Source of the DNA: Eledone cirrhosa
Lineage: Eukaryota
Direction: 5' to 3'
Assembly: GCA_964016885.1 (NCBI GenBank)
Contig: OZ024745.1
Coordinates: 108,686,001 to 108,750,000 of the forward strand
Length of the DNA: 64,000 nucleotides
In this document: positions 4,846 to 61,722 of the stretch, piece after piece
Numbering within the stretch: the first letter of the stretch is position 1
Layout of the letters: each line of letters begins with the position of its first letter
The notes under the pieces: model-generated
Told to the model about the DNA's origin: nothing
Databases searched by the model: none
The model's input: only the letters and a program-made list of their open reading frames with translations
Made by a program: the position numbers and the translations under genes

Positions 4846-4852
4846 ATACATA

Positions 4853-5052
4853 TATGAAAAGAGTCAGGACCCTGACGACTGAACTCCAGCTGTTTCGACA
4901 GCTAGATCCGAACTGGATCTAGCTGTCGAAATGGCCAGAGCTCGGCCGTTAGGATCCTGACTCTTTTCATATTACCCACTCTACTACTCTAAGTATTGAG
5001 TACTCTGGTGTGTTATGATCCACCTGGTATCTTACCACACCCTCTTTGTTAT
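4853..5052 (+). mobile_element. Family A fold-back mini-element (3' half hammerhead, palindromic head)
   Basis: Arms 4853-4909/4915-4972 around GATCC-GAACT-GGATC, then conserved tail ACCCACTCTACTACYCTAAGTATTGAGTACTCTGGTG...TTATA; flanked by TA. Confidence 0.85.
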
Positions 5053-27603: not shown

Positions 27604-27803
27604 ATAGGAAAATGTTTAACCCCGATGGCAGAGCTCAACCCGTTTCGACAGCTATATCTGGACCGAGTCCAGAAATAGCCGTTGAAACAGCTTGAGCTCT
27701 GCCGTCGGGGTTAAACATGTTCCTATTACCCACTCTACTACCCTAAGTATTGAGTACTCTGGTGCGTTATGGTCCATCTGGTTACTTACCACATCCTTCA
27801 TTA
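27604..27803 (+). mobile_element. Family A fold-back mini-element
   Basis: ~60-bp arms around CTGGAC-CGA-GTCCAG (27658-27672), then conserved tail; TA tracts both sides. Confidence 0.85.
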
Positions 27804-28248: not shown

Positions 28249-28787
28249 CTCAGTGAAATATATATAACGGAGTTTTAGATAAACCTGAATCAACTGATTA
28301 TGGCCTCTGATCTTTTTAATATCATCATCATTTTACATCCGCTTTTCCCTGCTTGCAAGGGTGGGACGGGAACTGATTCTGGCTTGATTTCTACAGCTGG
28401 ATGTCCTTCCTAACACCAACCTCATTTACAGCAAGTGCTGGGTGCTGTTTTGCCGTGGCACCTCCACGACCACTTTGCAGTGGAATGATATGGACCCCAG
28501 TCCCTATCATCTCATTTCTACAGCTGAGTAAACTGGAGCAATTTGAAATAAAGTGTCTTGCTCAAGGAAACAACACATCACCCGGTCTTAATACTATATA
28601 TATATATATATCAATGATATTAATAAACTATATTTATAAAACCATATTTATTCTATTATATATATTTCGAGGGTACCAAAACTTTGGCACGCTCTCATCA
28701 GATAAAATACAAAGTTTGTTTTATAAATATTGACATATCCAGGAATGAGACCTTAACAGTTCAAGTTTTACTTGGATAGTCATATAG

Positions 28788-30875: not shown

Positions 30876-31756
30876 ATTGCCAGTTTATTAAATCCAGGCT
30901 TTATAAAATCTGTATTCTACTAAAACTACGCACCACTGATATATCACCACACACACACACATACACAACACACACATACACACACACAGACACGCTGTTA
31001 TTATTCTCTTCCAGACCTTAACTGTCCGATAGCAAAAGAAGGAAAAACTTGAGTCATGCGAAAACAACCAATGACGGTCTGTGACAGCAAGAAAACGGTG
31101 AATAAAATTCGTATACAATAATGGAAAATGCGTATGATGTAAGGAGATGAGTTCTGATGTTTTTGGCAGCGACCTTTCTCCGAAGAAATGAAAGCTGTAT
31201 ACATTCTAACATATTTCCCTTTATCGATTTTAGAAGCTGTTCGATAGTTTTTATCCTCTTCATTTTGATAGAAATGATACTCAAATCAATATAAGGGACG
31301 AGTTACTTCCCTTAGAGTGTACAATTATGACTGAAGCTTCTTCGTATTGTTTTTTTTTTTCTTTTGTTTTTGTTATTTATTTCCTGTGTAAATTTTAAAA
31401 TATTAAATTTTAAAATGTTGCTTTTTAAAAAGAGATTGTAGGCAGCAGTATATGACCGGGCTACACACTTTGTGCCATTATGTTCTGAGTTCAAATCGAA
31501 TTAAAGTCGATATCACAAAATCCCCCTTCCAATTTAAATATAATTATATAGTGAAAATATGATAAATTAAGTCGTTCAGATACGTTTTTCTAATATCATA
31601 AACGCTGTCGTCTTGTGTATAGCTGATACACGTCTCATATTTTGACTTATGGGGACGGTTCTGTTTACTTTTCATGTTTTGGGCTATACTTGTGTAGTAT
31701 AATATTAATTTAAAATATTAATAAATGTAGACATACACGTAATCAAAATATATATT

Positions 31757-31819
31757 TTTTATTATATATATTTCGGAGGTACTGTGCTGTTTTTTTCAGT
31801 ACGTCCTCATCAGATAAAA
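31757..31819 (-). ncRNA. Type I hammerhead ribozyme motif (module B)
   Basis: TTTTAT-CTGATGA-GGACGTACTG..CAGTACCTCC-GAA-ATATATAT-A^ATAAAA. Confidence 0.85.
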
Positions 31820-32007
31820 TATATAAATTGATGTATGACATACCTCAACTGTGCTGATGGTTCAATACCAGTTTTGGATTAATATTAATAACTCCAGAAA
31901 ACTTTTTCTATTGAGTGCTTCTAATCTATTGTAAAACTATATTCATTGATTAATCAATGAACCCTGTTAAACTTTTGGTTATATATATATATATATATAT
32001 ACATATA

Positions 32008-32158
32008 TAACGAAGGGGGTGTGGTAAGGAACCAGATGGACCATAACGCACCAGAGTACTCAATACTTAGGGTAGTAGAGTGGGTAATAGGAAAATGAGT
32101 CCAGAAATAGCCGTCGAAACGGCTTGAGCTCTGTCGTCGGGGTCAAACATTTTCCTAT
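32008..32158 (-). mobile_element. Family A mini-element with one arm deleted (mirror copy 32576-32726)
   Basis: Conserved tail joined directly to GTCCAGAAATAGCCGTCGAAACGGC..GTCGGGGTC. Confidence 0.8.
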
Positions 32159-32213
32159 ATATATTATAAAATAACAGGAGGCTGGACTGGTGTAAATCCT
32201 TGAAAGGTTTATT

Positions 32214-32271
32214 ATACTATGATCATTTCAATGACCGGGTTCAGTATGAATCTGGTGACATTATCAGGTAT
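32214..32271 (-). ncRNA. Hammerhead motif (module C), core mutated to CTGATAA
   Basis: Mirror of 32462-32519 with G8 to A change, predicted inactive. Confidence 0.65.
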
Positions 32272-32461
32272 TCAAAATATAACAAAGGAATATAACAGAT
32301 AAAATCCATGGGGCTGAAAATCAGAGACAAGAGGACGACCGACTATTTAGAAACTTCTACCTCAGTCGGCCGGTAGAAGCTGCTAAATAGTCGGTCGTCC
32401 TCTTGTCTCTGATTTTCAGCCCCATGGATTTTATCTGTTATATTCTTTTGTTATATTTTGA

Positions 32462-32519
32462 ATACCTGATGATGTCACCGGATTCATACTGAACCCGGTC
32501 ATTGAAATGATCATAGTAT
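32462..32519 (+). ncRNA. Type I hammerhead ribozyme motif (module C)
   Basis: ATAC-CTGATGA-TGTCACCGGATTCATACTGAACCCGGTCATT-GAA-ATGATCAT-A^GTAT; palindromic stem III. Confidence 0.8.
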
Positions 32520-32722
32520 AATAAACCTTTCAAGGATTTACACCAGTCCAGCCTCCTGTTATTTTATAATATATATAGGAAAATGTTTGACCCCGACGAC
32601 AGAGCTCAAGCCGTTTCAACGGCTATTTCTGGACTCATTTTCCTATTACCCACTCTACTACCCTAAGTATTGAGTACTCTGGTGCGTTATGGTCCATCTG
32701 GTTCCTTACCGCACCTCCTTCG

Positions 32723-32760
<38 letters not shown>

Positions 32761-32919
32761 CCAAAAGTTTAACAAGGTTCATTGATTAATCAATGAATAT
32801 AGTTTTACAATAGATTAGAAGCACTCAATAGAAAAAGTTTTCTGGAGTTATTAATATTAATCCAAAACTGGTATTGAACCATCAGCACAGTTGAAGTATG
32901 TCATACATCAATTTATATA

Positions 32920-32981
32920 TTTTATCTGATGAGGACGTACTGAAAAAACAGCACAGTACCTCCGAAATATATATAATAAAA
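32920..32981 (+). ncRNA. Type I hammerhead ribozyme motif (module B)
   Basis: TTTTAT-CTGATGA-GGACGTACTGAAAAAACAGCACAGTACCTCC-GAA-ATATATAT-A^ATAAAA. Confidence 0.85.
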
Positions 32982-33837
32982 AAATATATTTTGATTACGT
33001 GTATGTCTACATTTATTAATATTTTGAATTAATATTATACTACACAAGTATAGCCCAAAACATGAAAAGTAACCAGAACCGTCCCCATAAGTCAAACTAT
33101 GAGACTTGTATCAGCTATACACAAGACGACAGCGTTTATGATATTAGAAAAACGTATCTGAATGACTTAATTTATCAAATTTTCACTATATAATTATATT
33201 TAAATTGGAGGGGGGGTTTTGTGATATCGACTTTAATTCGATTTGAACTCAGAACATAATGGCACAAAGTGTGTAGCCCGGTCATATACTGCTGCCTACA
33301 ATCTCTTTTTAAAAAGCAGCATTTTAAAATTTAATATTTTAACTTTGCCTTTCATCCTTCCAGGGTCGATAAAATAAAGTACCAGTAATGTATGGGTATT
33401 TGCTGGCCTTGCGCCAAAAGTAGATTATATTTCGATAACTATAATGGCACCCTCCACCCCCACCCACCCCGTGTGAGGGGAGCATCATCACCACCATCAT
33501 CAACAATTATCATGGTATCCGCGAGGCCCGAGCCTTTTATTCTTCGACGGAGTGCATTTTATCATTATTATTAGTACCACCACTACTACTACTACTATTA
33601 TGGTGGATTAGCAGTATCAGTAGAGCGTCGGACAACATGCTTTGTGGAATTGAGTTTCGGCCCTTTACGTTCTGGGTTCAAATCCCGCCGAAGTTAGCTT
33701 TGCCTTTTATCCTTCCGGGTTCGATTAAATAAAGTACCACTCACGTACTGAGGTCGATTTAATCGACTACCCCCCAAACAAAATTGCTGGCCTTGTGCCT
33801 AAAGTAGAAACAATTATTACTATTGTCATTGGAAGCT

Positions 33838-34690
33838 AAAAGCGCCATTTCCGACAAGCAAAGACTACAAAGACTGGATTAGTAAAATAGTTAAGCGAAC
33901 GTTGACGGACGCAATCGTCAACAACAAATATGGTGGTTCGCCTTAAAAAAGGGCTATTAGAGCAGAATCGATAAGGTTTAGTAAAGCTGTAACGATAGAG
34001 AAGACTAGAGTAGAGGGAGATTTAGTTAGAATATTAGAAGAGGCACTTACTAAAGGCATCACAGCCAACGTGCCTGCGGCGAGATTGGTCCTGAACCAAT
34101 TCTTCAATGGGCCTGAGTGGCGAAAGCGAGGCGTTGCAACAAAGCTACAATCCGCTCCTTGGCGGACCACGACGAACACGTTATACTTGATGCCAAGCAG
34201 ATGTGTGAGGTTTTTCAGTGACACTTCGCTCAAATGTTCGGGAGCTGTGGCGGGTCGGATCGAGGGATGTATTTCAGAACTTACTCCGATGGCCTACCGC
34301 GGCTCTTGGCGAAAAACCGATAACGGCCGAGGAAATAAGGGACGCAATGACTAGCTACACGAGCAGAAAATCTCCTGGCTGATATGGTCTGCCCTACGAG
34401 CTTTAGACAAACATACCAGGCTTGTTCAGCGACATCCTAGCGGACCTCTACGCCAACTGGCAGCAGAACGGGAGAATTCTCAGTTCTGTGAGTCGAGAAG
34501 CGGTAACGCTGCTGAGAAAGGATACAAACAAGGGAGACCATATAGACAATTTCAGGGTCATAACTCTGCTAAACGAAGAGTTAAAAATGTTGGCCAATGT
34601 GTTGGGCAAGAGGTCGGCGCTTGTCATCGGTGGTCTGGTTAGGGAGCCGGAAACATGCGCCATTCCGGGTAGATCCATCCACGACAATAT
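33838..34690 (+). pseudogene. L1/Tx1-clade non-LTR retrotransposon ORF2 fragment
   Basis: KSPG..GLPYEL, VTLLRKDTNKGDHIDNFRVITLLNEELKMLANVL, TCAIPGRSIHDN; truncated at a CT/TA tract. Confidence 0.8.
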
Positions 34691-34720: not shown

Positions 34721-34920
34721 TAACGAAGGAAATGTGGTAAGGAACCAGGTGGACCATAACGCACCAAAGTACTCAATACTTGGGGTAGTAGAGTGGGTAA
34801 TAGGAACCAGTAAGACCCCGACAGCTGAGCTCAAGCTGTTTCGACGGCTAATTCTGGTCGTCCAGAATTAGCCGTCGAAACGGCTTGAGCTCAGCTGTCG
34901 GGGTCTTACTGGTTCCTATA
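34721..34920 (-). mobile_element. Family A fold-back mini-element
   Basis: Near-perfect ~58-bp arms 34800-34857/34862-34919 around CTGG-TCGT-CCAG; TA flanks. Confidence 0.9.
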
Positions 34921-41286: not shown

Positions 41287-41342
41287 ACTGCTATATATAT
41301 TTCGAAGATAGCCATTGTATGGCTATGACCTCATCAGGCAGT
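41287..41342 (-). ncRNA. Type I hammerhead ribozyme motif
   Basis: ACTGC-CTGATGA-GGTCATAGCCATACAATGGCTATCTTC-GAA-ATATATAT-A^GCAGT in a ~110-bp island between two (TA)n tracts. Confidence 0.85.
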
Positions 41343-41406: not shown

Positions 41407-41603
41407 ACAAAGAGGGTATGGTAAGATTCCAGGTGGACCATAACGCACCAGAGTACTCAATACTTATTGTAGTAGAGTAGGTAATAGGAAAAGAGTCAGG
41501 ACCCCGACGGCTGGGCTCCAGCCGTTTCGACAGCTAGATCCGAGTTCAGATCTAGTCGTCGAAACGGCTGGAGCTCAGCCGTCGGGGTCCTGACTCTTTT
41601 CAT
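41404..41603 (-). mobile_element. Family A fold-back mini-element (same subfamily as 4853-5052)
   Basis: Arms GAAAAGAGTCAGGACCCCGACGGCTG..CTAGATC / GATCTAG..CAGCCGTCGGGGTCCTGACTCTTTTC. Confidence 0.9.
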
Positions 41604-42313
41604 ATATATATACACACATGCGCGCGCACAGAACTTGGTTCCACTAATGTCATCGATTTTATTTTCCAGTTCAAGTGTTATACACATACATACATTTACA
41701 TAACGCACTTGGACGTTCACACACACTACAGACAGAGTGATTTAATTCTTATTTTCTCTATATTATGGGGGGGAGTGTATGTGTGTGTGTGTGAGAATGT
41801 GCAAGCGTGTGTTTCCCCTCACCTCTTCTACCACCAAAACATAGACACACACACACACACACACACACTTATTAATACAAATACTTTCTTAACCCAAGCT
41901 CTCTGCAACACCACAGCCATCATCACAGTCTTTCTGTTAACAATGATCCTTACTTCATGCTAGCCTGAAGCAAAGACAAACCTTAAACTGATTCCACTCC
42001 ACGACTTTCCTGGCTCCCTTCCCTTCTCATCTCCCAACTACTCTTACCTTACCCACCCTACCTAAAAAAAAAAAAAATCATGAACGAAGTTGATAGAAGA
42101 TATAGAAGGATGAAGAATGGGTGAGAGATAAGGTAGACAGTGCAGCAATAGAAGTAACAACATAGATCTTAGCATGGATTAGAAGTGTTGGTAATGGGCT
42201 TGGAGGTGGCTGAGAGATGGGGGATGGTGGGAATGTCTTTGTTGTAGATCCAATAGCAAACACAATCACTAAGGCCTTTAGACAAAAGGAAGTATCAATT
42301 TGGATTGTAAGGT

Positions 42314-44870: not shown

Positions 44871-45057
44871 CATCATCATCATCATCATCATCATCACTGT
44901 TTAACATCCATGTGTCCACGCTGGCATGGGTTAGACGAGTTATCCTGTTGTGAGCAATGCCAGGTCAGGTGACCATGTCTTGCTCATACAGAACTGATTT
45001 TGGCTTGGTTTCTACAGCTGGATGCCTTTCCTAACACCAGTATCATTTACAGTGAGT
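44871..45057 (-). mobile_element. SINE family 2 3' portion leading into the 48-bp array
   Basis: (CAT)n tail, TTTCTACAGCTGGATGCCTTTCCTAACACC, continuous with the array. Confidence 0.85.
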
Positions 45058-48000
45058 ACTGGGTACTTTTGCCATGACACCTACCCGACCACTTTACAGT
45101 GTGGACTGGGTACTTTTTGCCATGACACCTACATGACCACTTTACAGTGTGGACTGGGTACTTTTTGCCATGACACCTACACGACCACTTTACAGTGTGG
45201 ACTGGGTACTTTTTGCCATGACACCTACACGACCACTTTACAGTGTGGACTGGGTACTTTTTGCCATGACACCTACACGACCACTTTACAGTGTGGACTG
45301 GGTACTTTTTGCCATGACACCTACATGACTACTTTACAGTGTGGACTGGGTACTTTTTGCCATGACACCTACACGACCACTTTACAGTGTGGACTGGGTA
45401 CTTTTTGCCATGACACCTACACGACCACTTTACAGTGTGGACTGGGTACTTTTTGCCATGACACCTACACGACCACTTTACAGTGTGGACTGGGTACTTT
45501 TTGCCATGACACCTACATGACCACTTTACAGTGTGGACTGGGTACTTTTTGCCATGACACCTACACGACCACTTTACAGTGTGGACTGGGTACCTTTTGC
45601 CATGACACCTACATGACCACTTTACAGTGTGGACTGGGTACTTTTTGCCATGACACCTACATGACCACTTTACAGTGTGGACTGGGTACTTTTTGCCATG
45701 ACACCTACACGACCACTTTACAGTGTGGACTGGGTACCTTTTGCCATGACACCTACATGACCACTTTACAGTGTGGACTGGGTACTTTTTGCCATGACAC
45801 CTACATGACCACTTTACAGTGTGGACTGGGTACTTTTTGCCATGACACCTACACGACCACTTTACAGTGTGGACTGGGTACCTTTTGCCATGACACCTAC
45901 ATGACCACTTTACAGTGTGGACTGGGTACTTTTTGCCATGACACCTACATGACCACTTTACAGTGTGGACTGGGTACTTTTTGCCATGACACCTACATGA
46001 CCACTTTACAGTGTGGACTGGGTACTTTTTGCCATGACACCTACATGACCACTTTACAGTGTGGACTGGGTACTTTTTGCCATGACACCTACACGACCAC
46101 TTTACAGTGTGGACTGGGTACCTTTTGCCATGACACCTACATGACCACTTTACAGTGTGGACTGGGTACTTTTTGCCATGACACCTACATGACCACTTTA
46201 CAGTGTGGACTGGGTACTTTTTGCCATGACACCTACACGACCACTTTACAGTGTGGACTGGGTACCTTTTGCCATGACACCTACATGACCACTTTACAGT
46301 GTGGACTGGGTACTTTTTGCCATGACACCTACATGACCACTTTACAGTGTGGACTGGGTACTTTTTGCCATGACACCTACATGACCACTTTACAGTGTGG
46401 ACTGGGTACTTTTTGCCATGACACCTACATGACCACTTTACAGTGTGGACTGGGTACTTTTTGCCATGACACCTACACGACCACTTTACAGTGTGGACTG
46501 GGTACCTTTTGCCATGACACCTACATGACCACTTTACAGTGTGGACTGGGTACTTTTTGCCATGACACCTACACGACCACTTTACAGTGTGGACTGGGTA
46601 CTTTTTGCCATGACACCTACACGACCACTTTACAGTGTGGACTGGGTACTTTTTGCCATGGCACCTACACGACCACTTTACAGTGTGGACTGGGTACCTT
46701 TTGCCATGACACCTACATGACCACTTTACAGTGTGGACTGGGTACCTTTTGCCATGACACCTACATGACCACTTTACAGTGTGGACTGGGTACCTTTTGC
46801 CATGACACCTACATGACCACTTTACAGTGTGGACTGGGTACCTTTTGCCATGACACCTACATGACCACTTTACAGTGTGGACTGGGTACTTTTTGCCATG
46901 ACACCTACAACGACCACTTTACAGTATGGACTGGGTACTTTTTGCCATGGCACCTACATGACCACTTTACAGTGTGGACTGGGTACATTTTGCCATGACA
47001 CCTACATGACCACTTTACAGTGTGGACTGGGTACTTTTTGCCATGACACCTACACGACCACTTTACAGTGTGGACTGGGTACTTTTTGCCATGACACCTA
47101 CACGACCACTTTACAGTGTGGACTGGGTACCTTTTGCCATGACACTTACATGACCACTTTACAGTGTGGACTGGGTACCTTTTGCCATGACACCTACATG
47201 ACCACTTTACAGTGTGGACTGGGTACCTTTTGCCATGACACCTACATGACCACTTTACAGTGTGGACTGGGTACTTTTTGCCATGACACCTACACGACCA
47301 CTTTACAGTGTGGACTGGGTACTTTTTGCCATGACACCTACACGACCACTTTACAGTGTGGACTGGGTACTTTTTGCCATGACACCTACACGACCACTTT
47401 ACAGTGTGGACTGGGTACCTTTTGCCATGACACCTACATGACCACTTTACAGTGTGGACTGGGTACTTTTTGCCATGACACCTACACGACCACTTTACAG
47501 TGTGGACTGGGTACTTTTTGCCATGACACCTACACGACCACTTTACAGTGTGGACTGGGTACTTTTTGCCATGACACCTACACGACCACTTTACAGTGTG
47601 GACTGGGTACCTTTTGCCATGACACCTACATGACCACTTTACAGTGTGGACTGGGTACTTTTTGCCATGACACCTACACGACCACTTTACAGTGTGGACT
47701 GGGTACCTTTTGCCATGACACCTACATGACCACTTTACAGTGTGGACTGGGTACTTTTTGCCATGACACCTACACGACCACTTTACAGTGTGGACTGGGT
47801 ACTTTTTGCCATGACACCTATACGACCACTTTACAGTGTGGACTGGGTACTTTTTGCCATGACACCTACACGACCACTTTACAGTGTGGACTGGGTACCT
47901 TTTGCCATGACACCTACATGACCACTTTACAGTGTGGACTGGGTACTTTTTGCCATGACACCTACACGACCACTTTACAGTGTGGACTGGGTACTTTTTG

Positions 48001-49895: not shown

Positions 49896-50027
49896 ATATA
49901 TGTAGGAGGTGAGTTTTATTGTAGTACAATAAAGCAATGCAGATATCGGATAAGAAGCACTCTACAGTTTGTAGGACTGGAGTATACATAATATAAGATC
50001 AAAAGATGGTTAAAGGAGTTCCATGTA

Positions 50028-50094
50028 TTTTATTATGCGCATTTCAAAAACAAACATCATCATGCAATAATATTTGTGTTTTCATCAGATAAAA
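50028..50094 (-). ncRNA. Type I hammerhead ribozyme motif (mirror copy)
   Basis: Reverse complement of 50219-50285 with intact core. Confidence 0.8.
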
Positions 50095-50218
50095 CAGGAG
50101 AACATGATATGGAGGCTAAAAAACACTTGTGGATAGTGCAGTTTTAAATCAACATATATGTTGATTTAAAACTGCACTATCCACAAGTGTTTTTTAGCCT
50201 TCATATCATGTCCTCCTG

Positions 50219-50285
50219 TTTTATCTGATGAAAACACAAATATTATTGCATGATGATGTTTGTTTTTGAAATGCGCATAATAAAA
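50219..50285 (+). ncRNA. Type I hammerhead ribozyme motif
   Basis: TTTTAT-CTGATGA-AAACACAAATATTATTGCATGATGATGTTTGTTTTT-GAA-ATGCGCAT-A^ATAAAA. Confidence 0.8.
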
Positions 50286-50611
50286 TACATGGAACTCATT
50301 TAACCATCTTTTGATCTTATATTATATATACATATATATATATATATGTGTATGTGTGTGTGTATCATTATCATCATCATCGTCGTTTAACGTCCACCTT
50401 CCATGCTAGGATAGGTTAGACACACACACCTACACACACACACACCCACCCACATGTATATATATATATATATATATGTGCGTGTGTGTATATATGTGTA
50501 TGTATATATATGCATATAATGGCTGATTGCAGTAAAATGCTTCTATTGACAGTCCAAATACTGAAGCAGTCAACATTATATCTACTCACAAATATTCTTC
50601 ACACTTTTATT

Positions 50612-50665: not shown

Positions 50666-51219
50666 GAGCAAGAATGAAGGGTTCATTCTACTGACATGGC
50701 TATAAAATTGAGGCTTGTTTGCATAATTGCAAATGAATCGAATGTTATTATTAATATTCGAAAAACTCAGATTACATTTATTGTATTCAGCCATGTAGAG
50801 GGAAATTTTCTTTTTTATTTGAATTTGGCAAAGCCGGCCATTGATCGCTCGTATACAGGAAACTGACTGGCCAGTCTGCTGATGTACAAATCTGGCTGCT
50901 TAGTGGATCTGCTAATATGTAGATCTGACTGATCAGCCAATTTGCTAATATGCAAATCAGGCCAATCAGTCACTGTGTATTTTTGAAAATAGCATATATT
51001 TTCACTAGCTCTGACAGTTTGGCAGGTGAACAGTGAGCTGTACTGATGAAGGGTGATACCCAGAAACATTAGTGTCTGCAGTTCTGTTCGCATGCCAACA
51101 CAAGAGCAAGAATGAAGTGTTCATTCTACTGACATGGCTATAAAATTGAGGCTTGTTTGCATAATTGCAAATGAATCGAATGTTATTATTAATATTCGAA
51201 AAACTCGGATTACATTTAT
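50666..51219 (+). mobile_element. 438-bp hammerhead-bearing unit with 116-bp terminal direct repeat (partial tandem), in (TA)n
   Basis: GAGCAAGAATGAAG...GATTACATTTAT at 50666-50781 and 51104-51219. Confidence 0.85.
51035..51084 (+). ncRNA. Type I hammerhead ribozyme motif with GUC site
   Basis: GAGCTGTA-CTGATGA-AGGGTGATACCCA-GAA-ACATTAGTGT-C^TGCAGTTC; 8-bp stem I (two G-U), A/A mismatch at base of stem II. Confidence 0.85.
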
Positions 51220-54012: not shown

Positions 54013-55524
54013 TAGAACTCATTAGTAATACCAATGACAAGCTCCCTAGCATTGGTTGCATGAGAAAATGTTCAGTTGCAGTTAGTGATAGGATGTACAT
54101 CTACCTAGAAATTATGCTAAAAAATAGAAAGAAGAGAGAACAAATGAATGGAAGAGACTCAGTAAACCATCTTGTAGGCAAGGTTTAGAGGAACTATGTA
54201 GTTCAGCTGCAGATAAATTCCCTGGTGCCAGTGGCATAATAAAATGTGCATCCGGCCCACACTGTAAAGTGATTCCTGCAAAAAAAAAAAGAAAAAAAAT
54301 TAATAATTATAATAATAAATAAATAAATAAAATGTCATGGCCCCCACAGAACCACCCCCACCCAAATAAATAGTACAAAATATGCAAGAATAAAGATGAT
54401 CTACGTTTTCAGTTGGTGTTCAAACCCTGCAATTCTGAGTTCAAATCCCACTGAGGTTAGCTTGCCTTTCATCCTTACGGGGTCGATAAAATAAAGTACC
54501 AGTAATGCACTGGGGTTGTATTATTCGACTTTACGCGCCCCCCTAATTGCTGGCCTTGTGTCTATAGTAGAAATCTTTATAATTATTATTAATATAGAAT
54601 GTTATGCCCCATGGCTTAGCTTAAACCGTTTTGATACCAAATGAGAAATTTCTCATTTACTATCTTAACAGTTTAAGATTAGCCATCAGGCATAACATTC
54701 ATCATCATCATCATCATCATTATCGTTTAACGTCCATATTCCATGCTTGCATGGGTTTGGACGGGAGTTTTCCCACTTGAGGCAAGAGTAGTTGTCTTGC
54801 TCGTATAGGACTGTCTGGCGGGTTTTCTACGGCTGGATGCCCTTCCTAACACCAACCACGTTTACAGTGTGAACTGGGAGGTTTTTACCGTGTTACCTAC
54901 ACGGCCACATTACAGCGTGGACTGTGTGTTTTTTTGTCGTGACACCTACACGACCTCATTCTATAATAATATCTACACTTTCCTTTCCTAAGGTTTATAG
55001 TACTAAGTTGAATAAGGGTCTAACTGGTCTTAACAAGTAACAACTCATCCATATAGTATATACACACATCTTTCTCGACAACCAGTCTAACCCATGCAAG
55101 CATGGAAAATAAACATTCAATGGTGGTGGTGATGATGATGATGATTGTATATATATATATATATATAATGGAGGCACATGGCTTAGTGGTTAGAGCATTG
55201 GCCTTGCAATCGAAAGGTTGTGAGTTCAATTCTCAGACACTTTATTTCACATTGCTCCAGTTTACTCAGCTGTAGAAATGAGATGATAGGGACTGGGGTT
55301 CCTATCATTCCACTGCAAAGTGGTCGTGCAGGTGCCACTGCAAAAATTTACCCACCACTCACTGTAAATGAGGTTGGTGTTAGGAAGGGTATCCAGCTGT
55401 AGAAATCAAGCCAGAATCAGTTCCTGTCCCACCCTTGCAAGCAGGGAAAAGCGGACGTAAAATGAAATGATGATATTATTAAGATTATTAATAAATGAAG
55501 ACATTCACATAATCAAAATATATG

Positions 55525-55586
55525 TTTTATTATATATATTTCGAAGGTACTGTGCTGTTTTTTCAGTACGTCCTCGTCAGATAAAA
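55525..55586 (-). ncRNA. Type I hammerhead ribozyme motif (module B)
   Basis: TTTTAT-CTGACGA-GGACGTACTG..CAGTACCTTC-GAA-ATATATAT-A^ATAAAA. Confidence 0.8.
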
Positions 55587-55705
55587 TATATGAATTGATG
55601 TATGACATACCTCAACAGTCTTGATGGTTCAATTCCAGTATTGACTGCCAATACTGGAATTGAACCATCAAGACTGTTGAGGTATGTCATACATCAATTC
55701 ATGTA

Positions 55706-55766
55706 TTTTATCTGACGAGGACGTACTGAAAAACAGCACAGTACCTTCAAAATATATATAATACAA
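55706..55766 (+). ncRNA. Mirror hammerhead, GAAA mutated to AAAA
   Basis: CTGACGA...CCTTCAAAATATATATA; G12 to A, predicted inactive. Confidence 0.6.
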
Positions 55767-55911
55767 CATATATTTTGATTATGTGAATGTCTTCATTTAT
55801 TAATATTCTGAATAATATTAATAACTCCAGAAAACATTTTTCTGTAGAGTGCTTTTAATCTATTGTAAAACTATATTCATTGAGTAATCAATGAACCCTA
55901 TTAATCTTTGG

Positions 55912-55951
<40 letters not shown>

Positions 55952-61682: not shown

Positions 61683-61722
61683 CCGAGAACAATTGTTTCA
61701 CCTTAGCGGATCCTCAGCTCGG
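61683..61722 (-). ncRNA. Type I hammerhead in the Penelope 3' pseudo-LTR
   Basis: CCGAG-CTGAGGA-TCCGCTAAGGT-GAA-ACAATTGT-T^CTCGG, ~160 nt downstream of the stop codon, same strand. Confidence 0.85.

What the first reader, a model, noticed from the sequence alone, without database searches (positions are those of the whole stretch)
31395..33342. 1.95-kb palindrome stacking three ribozyme modules per arm and splitting a SINE
Seen: each ~970-bp arm holds module B, (TA)n, family A, TA, module C; centre is a ~10-nt loop. The left arm starts with a SINE-like 5' part ending GTTCAAATC..AAGTCGA (~31510), and directly after the right arm the SINE body resumes (ACTTTGCCTTTCATCC, 33342). Arms differ by scattered substitutions, arguing against a simple read or assembly fold-back. 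Inference: fold-back synthesis ran past the insertion point and copied flanking DNA before rejoining, i.e. retroelement-driven inverted duplication of host sequence. If transcribed it would give ~1 kb dsRNA carrying ribozyme sites.
Basis: partly seen in the sequence, partly recalled or inferred. Interest (0 to 1): 0.75.

Follow-up and report, generated by a model that had tools for sequence, protein, structure and literature searches.

The report
Penelope-type hairpin mirroring host DNA
A 1.95-kb mirror-image stretch is centred on the end of a young, common ribozyme-bearing repeat that is likely a Penelope-type jumping gene, and it likely formed when that element's new DNA copy folded back and copying ran about 770 bases on into older neighbouring DNA, a rare variant of a known kind of transposon debris rather than a designed ribozyme stack.

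Summary
The palindrome is in the assembly: arms 31395-32361 and 32372-33342, 10-nt loop, 20 substitutions. Its centre is the 5' end of module C, a young non-coding Penelope-like repeat with a minimal hammerhead. Head-to-head C pairs are common here, and 44 of 47 carry the usual 'tail' on one arm. This one has no tail; both arms run 767 nt on into older repeats and single-locus DNA. One of 153 other element palindromes also mirrors its flank.

Two first-reader claims fail. Only B and C carry whole hammerhead cores (left C is mutated); A is a 3' half. The SINE pieces differ in age (52-64% versus 73-91% identity to whole copies), so the right junction is a 4-nt-microhomology join into another, decapitated SINE, not a split one. 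The overrun is therefore likely 767 nt from C, not 115 nt from 31510.

Best reading (0.5): snap-back at C's insertion with run-on synthesis; later hairpin repair is the main rival. No read spans the junctions; short-read contigs mildly favour both arms being real. Similar outcomes are published for R2 and LINE-1; the scan noted similar cases elsewhere in this genome.

The parts
31395..32361 (+). Left arm of the palindrome
32362..32371 (.). 10-nt loop; ordinary module C sequence about 8 nt short of the family's usual 5' end; 1 nt shared at the turn
32372..33342 (-). Right arm (inverted copy of 31395-32361)
31441..31510 (+). Old, diverged SINE-like 5' piece (mirrored at 33227-33296)
   Evidence: 52-64% to whole copies, above shuffles at 46%
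31511..31697 (.). Segment X: single-locus host DNA, present only in the two arms (mirrored at 33040-33226)
   Evidence: 2 matches in the genome search; joined to the unique left flank in public contigs
31698..31979 (.). Module B: older Penelope-like stub; hammerhead arm on the - strand (31698-31876) plus tail on the + strand (31877-31979)
   Evidence: genome copies 85-92%; standard form at 55473-55914
31763..31813 (-). Minimal type I hammerhead core of B, left arm
31980..32009 (.). (TA)n; 6 nt longer in the right arm
32010..32156 (+). Module A: tail plus collapsed head-to-head pair; holds only the 3' half (32097-32156) of a U3-A8 type hammerhead
32162..32371 (-). Module C, left copy, tail-less; core 32218-32267 with G8 changed to A and one stem II change (predicted inactive)
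32372..32571 (+). Module C, right copy, tail-less; whole minimal hammerhead core at 32466-32515
32926..32975 (+). Minimal type I hammerhead core of B, right arm
33339..33342 (.). 4-nt microhomology (TTAA) shared by the arm end and the downstream SINE
   Evidence: 7 of the 14 other SINE rows have the same four letters there
33339..33424 (+). 3' part of a young SINE lacking its 5' head (inferred deletion)
   Evidence: 85-92% to copies over this whole stretch; 73-91% over 80 nt

Best explanation
The palindrome is an inverted duplication centred on the 5' end of module C, likely made when C was inserting into the TA run beside module A and its new cDNA likely folded back on itself. Inferred steps: (1) a Penelope-type enzyme acting in trans nicked the TA run near 32160 and copied C RNA from its internal, tail-less start; (2) near the RNA's 5' end the cDNA snapped back (10-nt loop, 1 nt shared); (3) DNA synthesis copied C and, instead of stopping at the TA run, ran 767 nt on through A, (TA)n, B, X and the old SINE piece; (4) the end joined a resected downstream end inside a young SINE through TTAA, losing that SINE's head and an unknown length before it. 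The 'stack' of ribozyme modules is independent insertions piling into one TA run. Shown: anatomy, family ages, junctions. Not shown: the order of events and the enzyme.
For: The turn lies where C copies end and where other C pairs turn. C is young (97-98% copies) and the arms differ by 2.1%, 2.5% within C. In C (197 nt) 0 sites are shared by both arms against the family majority, 4 are left-only, 1 right-only; B and A have about 5 and 2 rare shared variants, so B and A predate the duplication and C does not visibly predate it. Exactly one tail in 44 of 47 C, 15 of 16 D and 23 of 24 B palindromes (the script counted 43 for C, and L149's tail, visible, was missed by the pattern); this locus has two tail-less arms with the same flank, as a copy of one arm would. 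X is single-locus. A second C palindrome, L043, is flanked by a 276-nt mirror of near-unique DNA. A+C neighbours at 4 other loci have different A structures, so they are independent. Snap-back onto cDNA or nearby target DNA after full-length synthesis is reported for R2 (PMC11371274 passages); inverted duplications and foldbacks at LINE-1 insertions in 10.1101/2024.12.14.628481 (passages).
Against: No read or listed contig bridges the centre or the right junction with 31 nt on both sides. Zero shared changes of 5 bounds the gap between C's insertion and the duplication only weakly (by hand: up to about 1.6 times the age of the arms), so a later event fits too. The usual one-tail pattern suggests that normal C pairs come from two cDNAs, not from snap-back, so this locus needs a rarer route. 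L043 keeps a tail on one arm, so it is not a pure snap-back product. No empty allele was seen. At 31711 the public contigs share the apparently derived letter with the left arm only, which the simplest history does not predict.
Confidence: 0.5

Rival explanations
1. Repair after insertion: a standard C head-to-head pair (or the broken end left by C's insertion) formed a hairpin-capped end or fused with its sister chromatid; replication copied the left arm and flank, and the end was rejoined downstream by microhomology, deleting the tailed arm.
For: Same final anatomy; loss of the tailed arm and of the SINE head is expected; short palindromes are abundant and unstable here (collapsed arms in A and B). 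Replication/fusion foldbacks holding a retro-insertion are described for LINE-1. L043, with a tailed arm next to the mirrored flank, fits two copies of one end being extended.
Against: No change shared by both C arms, so any delay was not long compared with the arms' age; needs two events instead of one.
Confidence: 0.3
2. Assembly artefact or mix of haplotypes: the path walks back along the other haplotype's copy of the left arm after the C hairpin.
For: No bridging contig listed; one unbroken contig runs from the unique left flank through 31395 in 3 of 3 runs of one sample; that sample differs from the assembly by roughly 0.5-3% in nearby pieces, similar to the arm difference.
Against: No N in the window; the exit at 33342 has only 4 nt of overlap; no second copy of the left flank in the assembly. 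In the contigs, 4 of 5 groups of differing sites took the same letter in every run that covers them, while flank sites 31037 and 31238 varied between runs; by hand about 1 in 128 if the two arm types were simply two alleles at 1:1. The contig has no letter unlike both arms in 323 nt (about 0.04 for one independent copy), which suits a majority path over three or more copies.
Confidence: 0.1
3. One reading: one composite RNA (C-A-B-X) inserted at 31510 inside a SINE, folded back and overran by 115 nt, splitting that SINE.
For: The two SINE-like pieces meet in register at the family's usual position.
Against: The pieces differ strongly in age; the 4-nt microhomology matches the young SINE's own text; no donor for X or for the composite among the scored candidates (40 of 7585 candidates scored for the composite, 2 of 2 for X); X follows the left flank in public contigs.
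Confidence: 0.06

Closest known systems
Insertion units of endonuclease-positive Penelope-like elements with inverted pLTR and tail (Arkhipova et al. 2013, PMC3846280; Craig et al. 2021, PMC8557442; Frangieh et al. 2024, PMC11167929)
   Same: Head-to-head inverted 5'-truncated copy, palindrome at the junction, tail on one end, partial tandems, (TA)n targets, hammerhead in the terminal repeat (passages; part 1 of 4).
   Different: Tails here are about 85-146 nt, not 30-40; the C parent is non-coding; at this locus neither arm has a tail and 767 nt of target flank are mirrored, which the passages read do not describe.
Minimal type I hammerheads of metazoan PLEs (Cervera and de la Pena 2014, PMC4209133)
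   Same: Short helix I, long helix II, tiny palindromic helix III, as in B and C (passages).
   Different: Activity untested here; that paper found no cleavage as a monomer and low cleavage as dimers. A is half of a long-helix-III variant with the U3-A8 swap (swap described in PMC3088659, passage).
Snap-back 5' junctions of R2-mediated insertions (PMC11371274, PMC11331408)
   Same: cDNA 3' end primes further synthesis on itself or on nearby target DNA before joining, often after full-length cDNA (passages).
   Different: Engineered R2 in human cells; the passages give no case of a run-on through the whole cDNA and hundreds of bases of flank.
LINE-1 insertions with inverted duplication or foldback (bioRxiv 10.1101/2024.12.14.628481)
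   Same: Local inverted duplication and deletion at a retro-insertion through self-annealing and microhomology; foldbacks holding the insertion (passages).
   Different: There the inverted duplication sits on the reciprocal end with the hairpin in genomic DNA, in somatic cells; here the hairpin lies in the element's 5' end and the locus is in a reference assembly.

Membership tests
Penelope-like element (module C family) | Hammerhead motif in the terminal repeat | tested here: met
   60 of 89 distinct C rows and 57 of 65 distinct B rows keep the core pattern (rows are distinct sequences from overlapping loci and include this locus); right C at 32466-32515
Penelope-like element (module C family) | Head-to-head inverted copy with a tail on one end | tested here: met
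   44 of 47 C pairs. Met for the family; this locus is one of the 3 without a tail
Penelope-like element (module C family) | Partial tandem arrangement forming pseudo-LTRs | tested here: met
   L089: two 2077-bp units at 99.6%, a partial third and an inverted end copy
Penelope-like element (module C family) | (TA)n target | tested here: met
   tail-less ends abut (TA)n in most rows (read by eye, not counted)
Penelope-like element (module C family) | ORF for reverse transcriptase plus GIY-YIG endonuclease | tested here: not met
   2077-bp unit: 8 stop-free frames of 57-126 aa, no RT or GIY-YIG Pfam hit in 8 of 8. It works like a non-autonomous PLE; the autonomous partner was not identified, so clade is unassigned
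Hammerhead ribozyme (module A at this locus) | Both halves of the catalytic core | tested here: not met
   0 of 62 rows with a canonical core in the module; the upstream box occurs only in 5 of 54 longer rows and is absent here
Hammerhead ribozyme (modules B, C) | Self-cleavage | not testable with these tools
   no assay; Rfam models give no hit
Non-LTR retrozyme | Tandem units each with a type I hammerhead | tested here: not met
   no tandem units in the arm; definition from bioRxiv 10.64898/2026.07.22.740005, part 1 of 5
Foldback/MITE DNA transposon | Whole palindrome repeated elsewhere with target duplication | tested here: not met
   outer arm found only at this locus; flanks do not align
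Insertion splitting one SINE | Both halves equally diverged from the same subfamily | tested here: not met
   52-64% versus 73-91%

The most novel reading that the evidence does not exclude
Penelope-type insertions recurrently generate inverted duplications of hundreds of bases of host DNA plus a deletion, at roughly 1 in 150 head-to-head insertions in this genome, because the cDNA end or the self-complementary TA target folds back and synthesis overruns; such loci would show directly that cDNA snap-back happens in the PLE cycle and would make these elements a steady source of germ-line palindromes.
Probability: 0.35. Interest if true: 0.55.

Novelty: new variant of a known kind. Interest (0 to 1): 0.3.

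Why it matters
How Penelope-like elements build their inverted ends is still open (stated in PMC8557442 and PMC3846280, passages). Most pairs in this genome fit two cDNAs starting at two fixed sites; this locus and L043 are rare exceptions in which target DNA was mirrored, which constrains the intermediate and extends to PLEs an outcome published for LINE-1 and R2. It is one locus of transposon debris without read confirmation, with no sign of function, and the ribozymes are predicted to be locked in the hairpin if it is transcribed.

Tried and rejected
Rfam: nothing at gathering score; weak hits were hairpin and microsatellite matches. Donor for X or the composite: none. Idea that the old SINE continues past 31510: rejected, 297 of 500 shuffles scored as well. 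Composite A+C element: rejected, 4 other neighbours differ in A structure. Long palindromes L170 and L176 around family D were microsatellite only; L136 and L206 are repeat-internal; L191's mirrored array is not adjacent; L179 mirrors only the element's tail. A-to-I style bias between arms: not seen by eye in the list of 20 substitutions. Expression: no RNA holder listed. Raw reduced-representation reads (X7) gave depth 1-2 on the outer arm and settled nothing. My notebook's first reading of the contigs (single copy in that sample, judged by depth) was dropped: flat contig depth cannot tell 2 from 3 copies when most words overlap a differing site, and a low-depth link into a huge SINE node may be pruned (assembler behaviour recalled, not tested). 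PMC9977147 passages held no PLE flank mirroring; its long duplications are Dualen LINEs. Pfam found nothing in two frames downstream of the palindrome. Look-up of earlier notes near this place returned nothing.

Full report
Observation. The window lies on a 135-Mb contig of a 3.0-Gb animal assembly. An inverted repeat spans 31395-33342 with arms 31395-32361 and 32372-33342 and a 10-nt loop. The arms differ by 20 substitutions, 15 of them transitions, and 8 gap columns. It is the longest of 56 hairpin palindromes found in 464 kb made of the window and 40 further 10-kb stretches; the next longest are microsatellite-driven or element-internal.

Anatomy. From outside in, each arm holds 46 nt of AT-rich DNA, an old SINE-like piece (31441-31510), segment X (31511-31697), module B (31698-31979), (TA)n, module A (32010-32156), a short TA run and module C (32162-32371). 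X and the outer 220 nt match only the two arms in genome searches (such searches skip very common words). B, A and C are dispersed families: best copies 85-92% for B and 97-98% for C; A copies in the window are 82-94%.

Ribozymes. A descriptor scan found minimal type I hammerhead cores in B on both arms and in C on the right arm; they have the short helix I and palindromic helix III described for metazoan Penelope-like elements (PMC4209133, passages). Left C carries G8 changed to A with C3 unchanged, plus a stem II change, and loses its stable stem (z -0.06 against -1.99). Module A has no core: 0 of 62 rows. Five of 54 longer rows carry the missing upstream box, four in the U3-A8 form, a natural swap (PMC3088659, passage); one of four folded rows gives the three-helix shape as its lowest-energy fold. 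So A is the 3' half of a hammerhead. In the predicted fold of the whole palindrome (953 pairs) both whole cores on the + strand are fully paired. No RNA run was listed, which says nothing either way.

What C is. C copies end near one position about 8 nt beyond the turn seen here, and many are followed by an inverted second copy. The parent is a 2077-bp unit found as a partial tandem with an inverted end copy (L089), without an RT or endonuclease frame. One arm normally carries a 146-nt tail and the other abuts (TA)n: exactly one tail in 44 of 47 C pairs, 15 of 16 D pairs and 23 of 24 B pairs. This matches published PLE insertion units (PMC3846280 and PMC8557442, passages) and internal initiation of reverse transcription (PMC11167929, part 1 of 4). 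C works like a non-autonomous PLE; clade membership was not established.

What is unusual. Both C arms are tail-less and both continue for 767 nt into the same flank. Among 153 other element palindromes (46 C, 20 D, 40 B, 22 A, 25 of a fifth family), chosen by likeness to hairpin centres and read about 1.1-1.8 kb each side, one mirrors adjacent non-repeat flank: L043, 276 nt at 91%, whose flank has two full matches and only weak partial ones elsewhere. One search listed only inverted hits of 40 nt or more at 85% or more; the three longest per locus.

Order of events. Against the majority of the 22-25 nearest copies, both arms share about 5 rare variants in B and 2 in A, but none in C, where 4 changes are left-only and 1 right-only. 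B and A were therefore in place before the duplication; C shows no time before it, though five changes bound this weakly. A+C and B+A neighbours at 5 other loci have different junctions, so the stack is serial insertion into one TA run.

The SINE. The 70 nt before 31510 are 52-64% identical to the same part of 10 whole copies, which are 80% alike among themselves; the 80 nt from 33343 are 73-91% identical to those copies. Seven of 14 other rows read TTAA before the body, the same four letters that end the right arm. The right junction is thus a 4-nt microhomology join into a young SINE that has lost its head; the in-register look is coincidence plus an old fragment.

Reads. Three contig sets of one sample each give one contig from the unique left flank (30998) through the arm start to 31696-31743. 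It carries right-arm letters at 31559, 31574, 31631, 31640 and 31664 in 3 of 3 runs, left-arm letters at 31521 and 31527 in 3 of 3, and, inferred from mismatch counts, at 31711 in the 2 runs that reach it; 31418 and two flank sites vary between runs. No listed piece bridges the right junction or the centre, but only the longest pieces are listed. A path with no letter unlike both arms, stable across runs, fits a majority over three or more copies better than a single independent copy (about 0.04) or two alleles at 1:1 (about 1 in 128 by hand). This is mild support that both arm types exist in that sample, which may be the assembly's source and so is not independent. The structure remains unconfirmed by spanning reads.

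Mechanism. Most likely (0.5) C's cDNA, primed in the TA run beside A, snapped back near the RNA's 5' end, synthesis overran the insertion point by 767 nt and the end joined downstream through TTAA with a deletion. Later hairpin or sister-fusion repair gives the same product (0.3).

Comparison and novelty. Head-to-head PLE palindromes are known. Snap-back onto cDNA or nearby target DNA is reported for R2 (PMC11371274 and PMC11331408, passages), and inverted duplications and foldbacks for LINE-1 (10.1101/2024.12.14.628481, passages); both leads came from earlier notes of this scan and were read here. Seven paper searches (listings only, plus the papers named) showed no report of a PLE insertion mirroring its target flank; the library lacks most subscription papers and no supplements were read. 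Earlier unreviewed notes describe similar mirrored flanks on other DNA of this genome. Verdict: a real-looking but unconfirmed rare variant of ordinary PLE debris; interest 0.3.

Noticed in passing
L043:1200-2356 (G000:C4 near 199.238 Mb): C head-to-head pair with one tailed arm, flanked by a 276-nt inverted copy of near-unique upstream DNA; second mirrored-flank case.
   Followed up: partly
L089:2322-6854 (G000:C2 near 92.43 Mb): Two 99.6% identical 2077-bp non-coding units plus partial third and inverted end copy; parent of module C, with an internal 150-nt repeat at 73%.
   Followed up: partly
L080, L144, L193, L205, L073 (longer A rows): Family A parent carries a type I hammerhead with long helix III and mostly the U3-A8 core swap; short A stubs begin inside helix II, dropping the 5' half.
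   Followed up: partly
window 49982-50331, 55473-55818, 34800-34919, 27604-27726, 41484-41605, 4852-4972: Further short head-to-head element palindromes with one tail each (families D, B, A).
   Followed up: partly
window 51043-51076 (+), 61688-61717 (-), 41292-41337 (-), 28657-28701 (-): Other hammerhead-like cores from the descriptor scan.
   Followed up: no
L130:8421-9963 (G000:C4 near 70.01 Mb): Inverted repeat with 707-nt arms at 97.6% and about 130-nt spacer, mostly without matches in other fetched loci; origin unknown.
   Followed up: no
L179:1269-1896: Family D palindrome with the tail on both arms (137 nt, 100% identical), unlike the 15 other D pairs.
   Followed up: partly
window 33820-34690: Frames that look by eye like a decayed non-LTR retrotransposon RT start (recalled motif); no Pfam hit, interrupted by family A at 34690.
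   Followed up: partly
L090 minus strand, 171-aa frame: Fragment resembling the C-terminal RT region of a Penelope-like protein (recalled resemblance, untested).
   Followed up: no
window about 45000-48000: Long tandem array with a period of about 48 nt that resembles part of a dispersed repeat.
   Followed up: no
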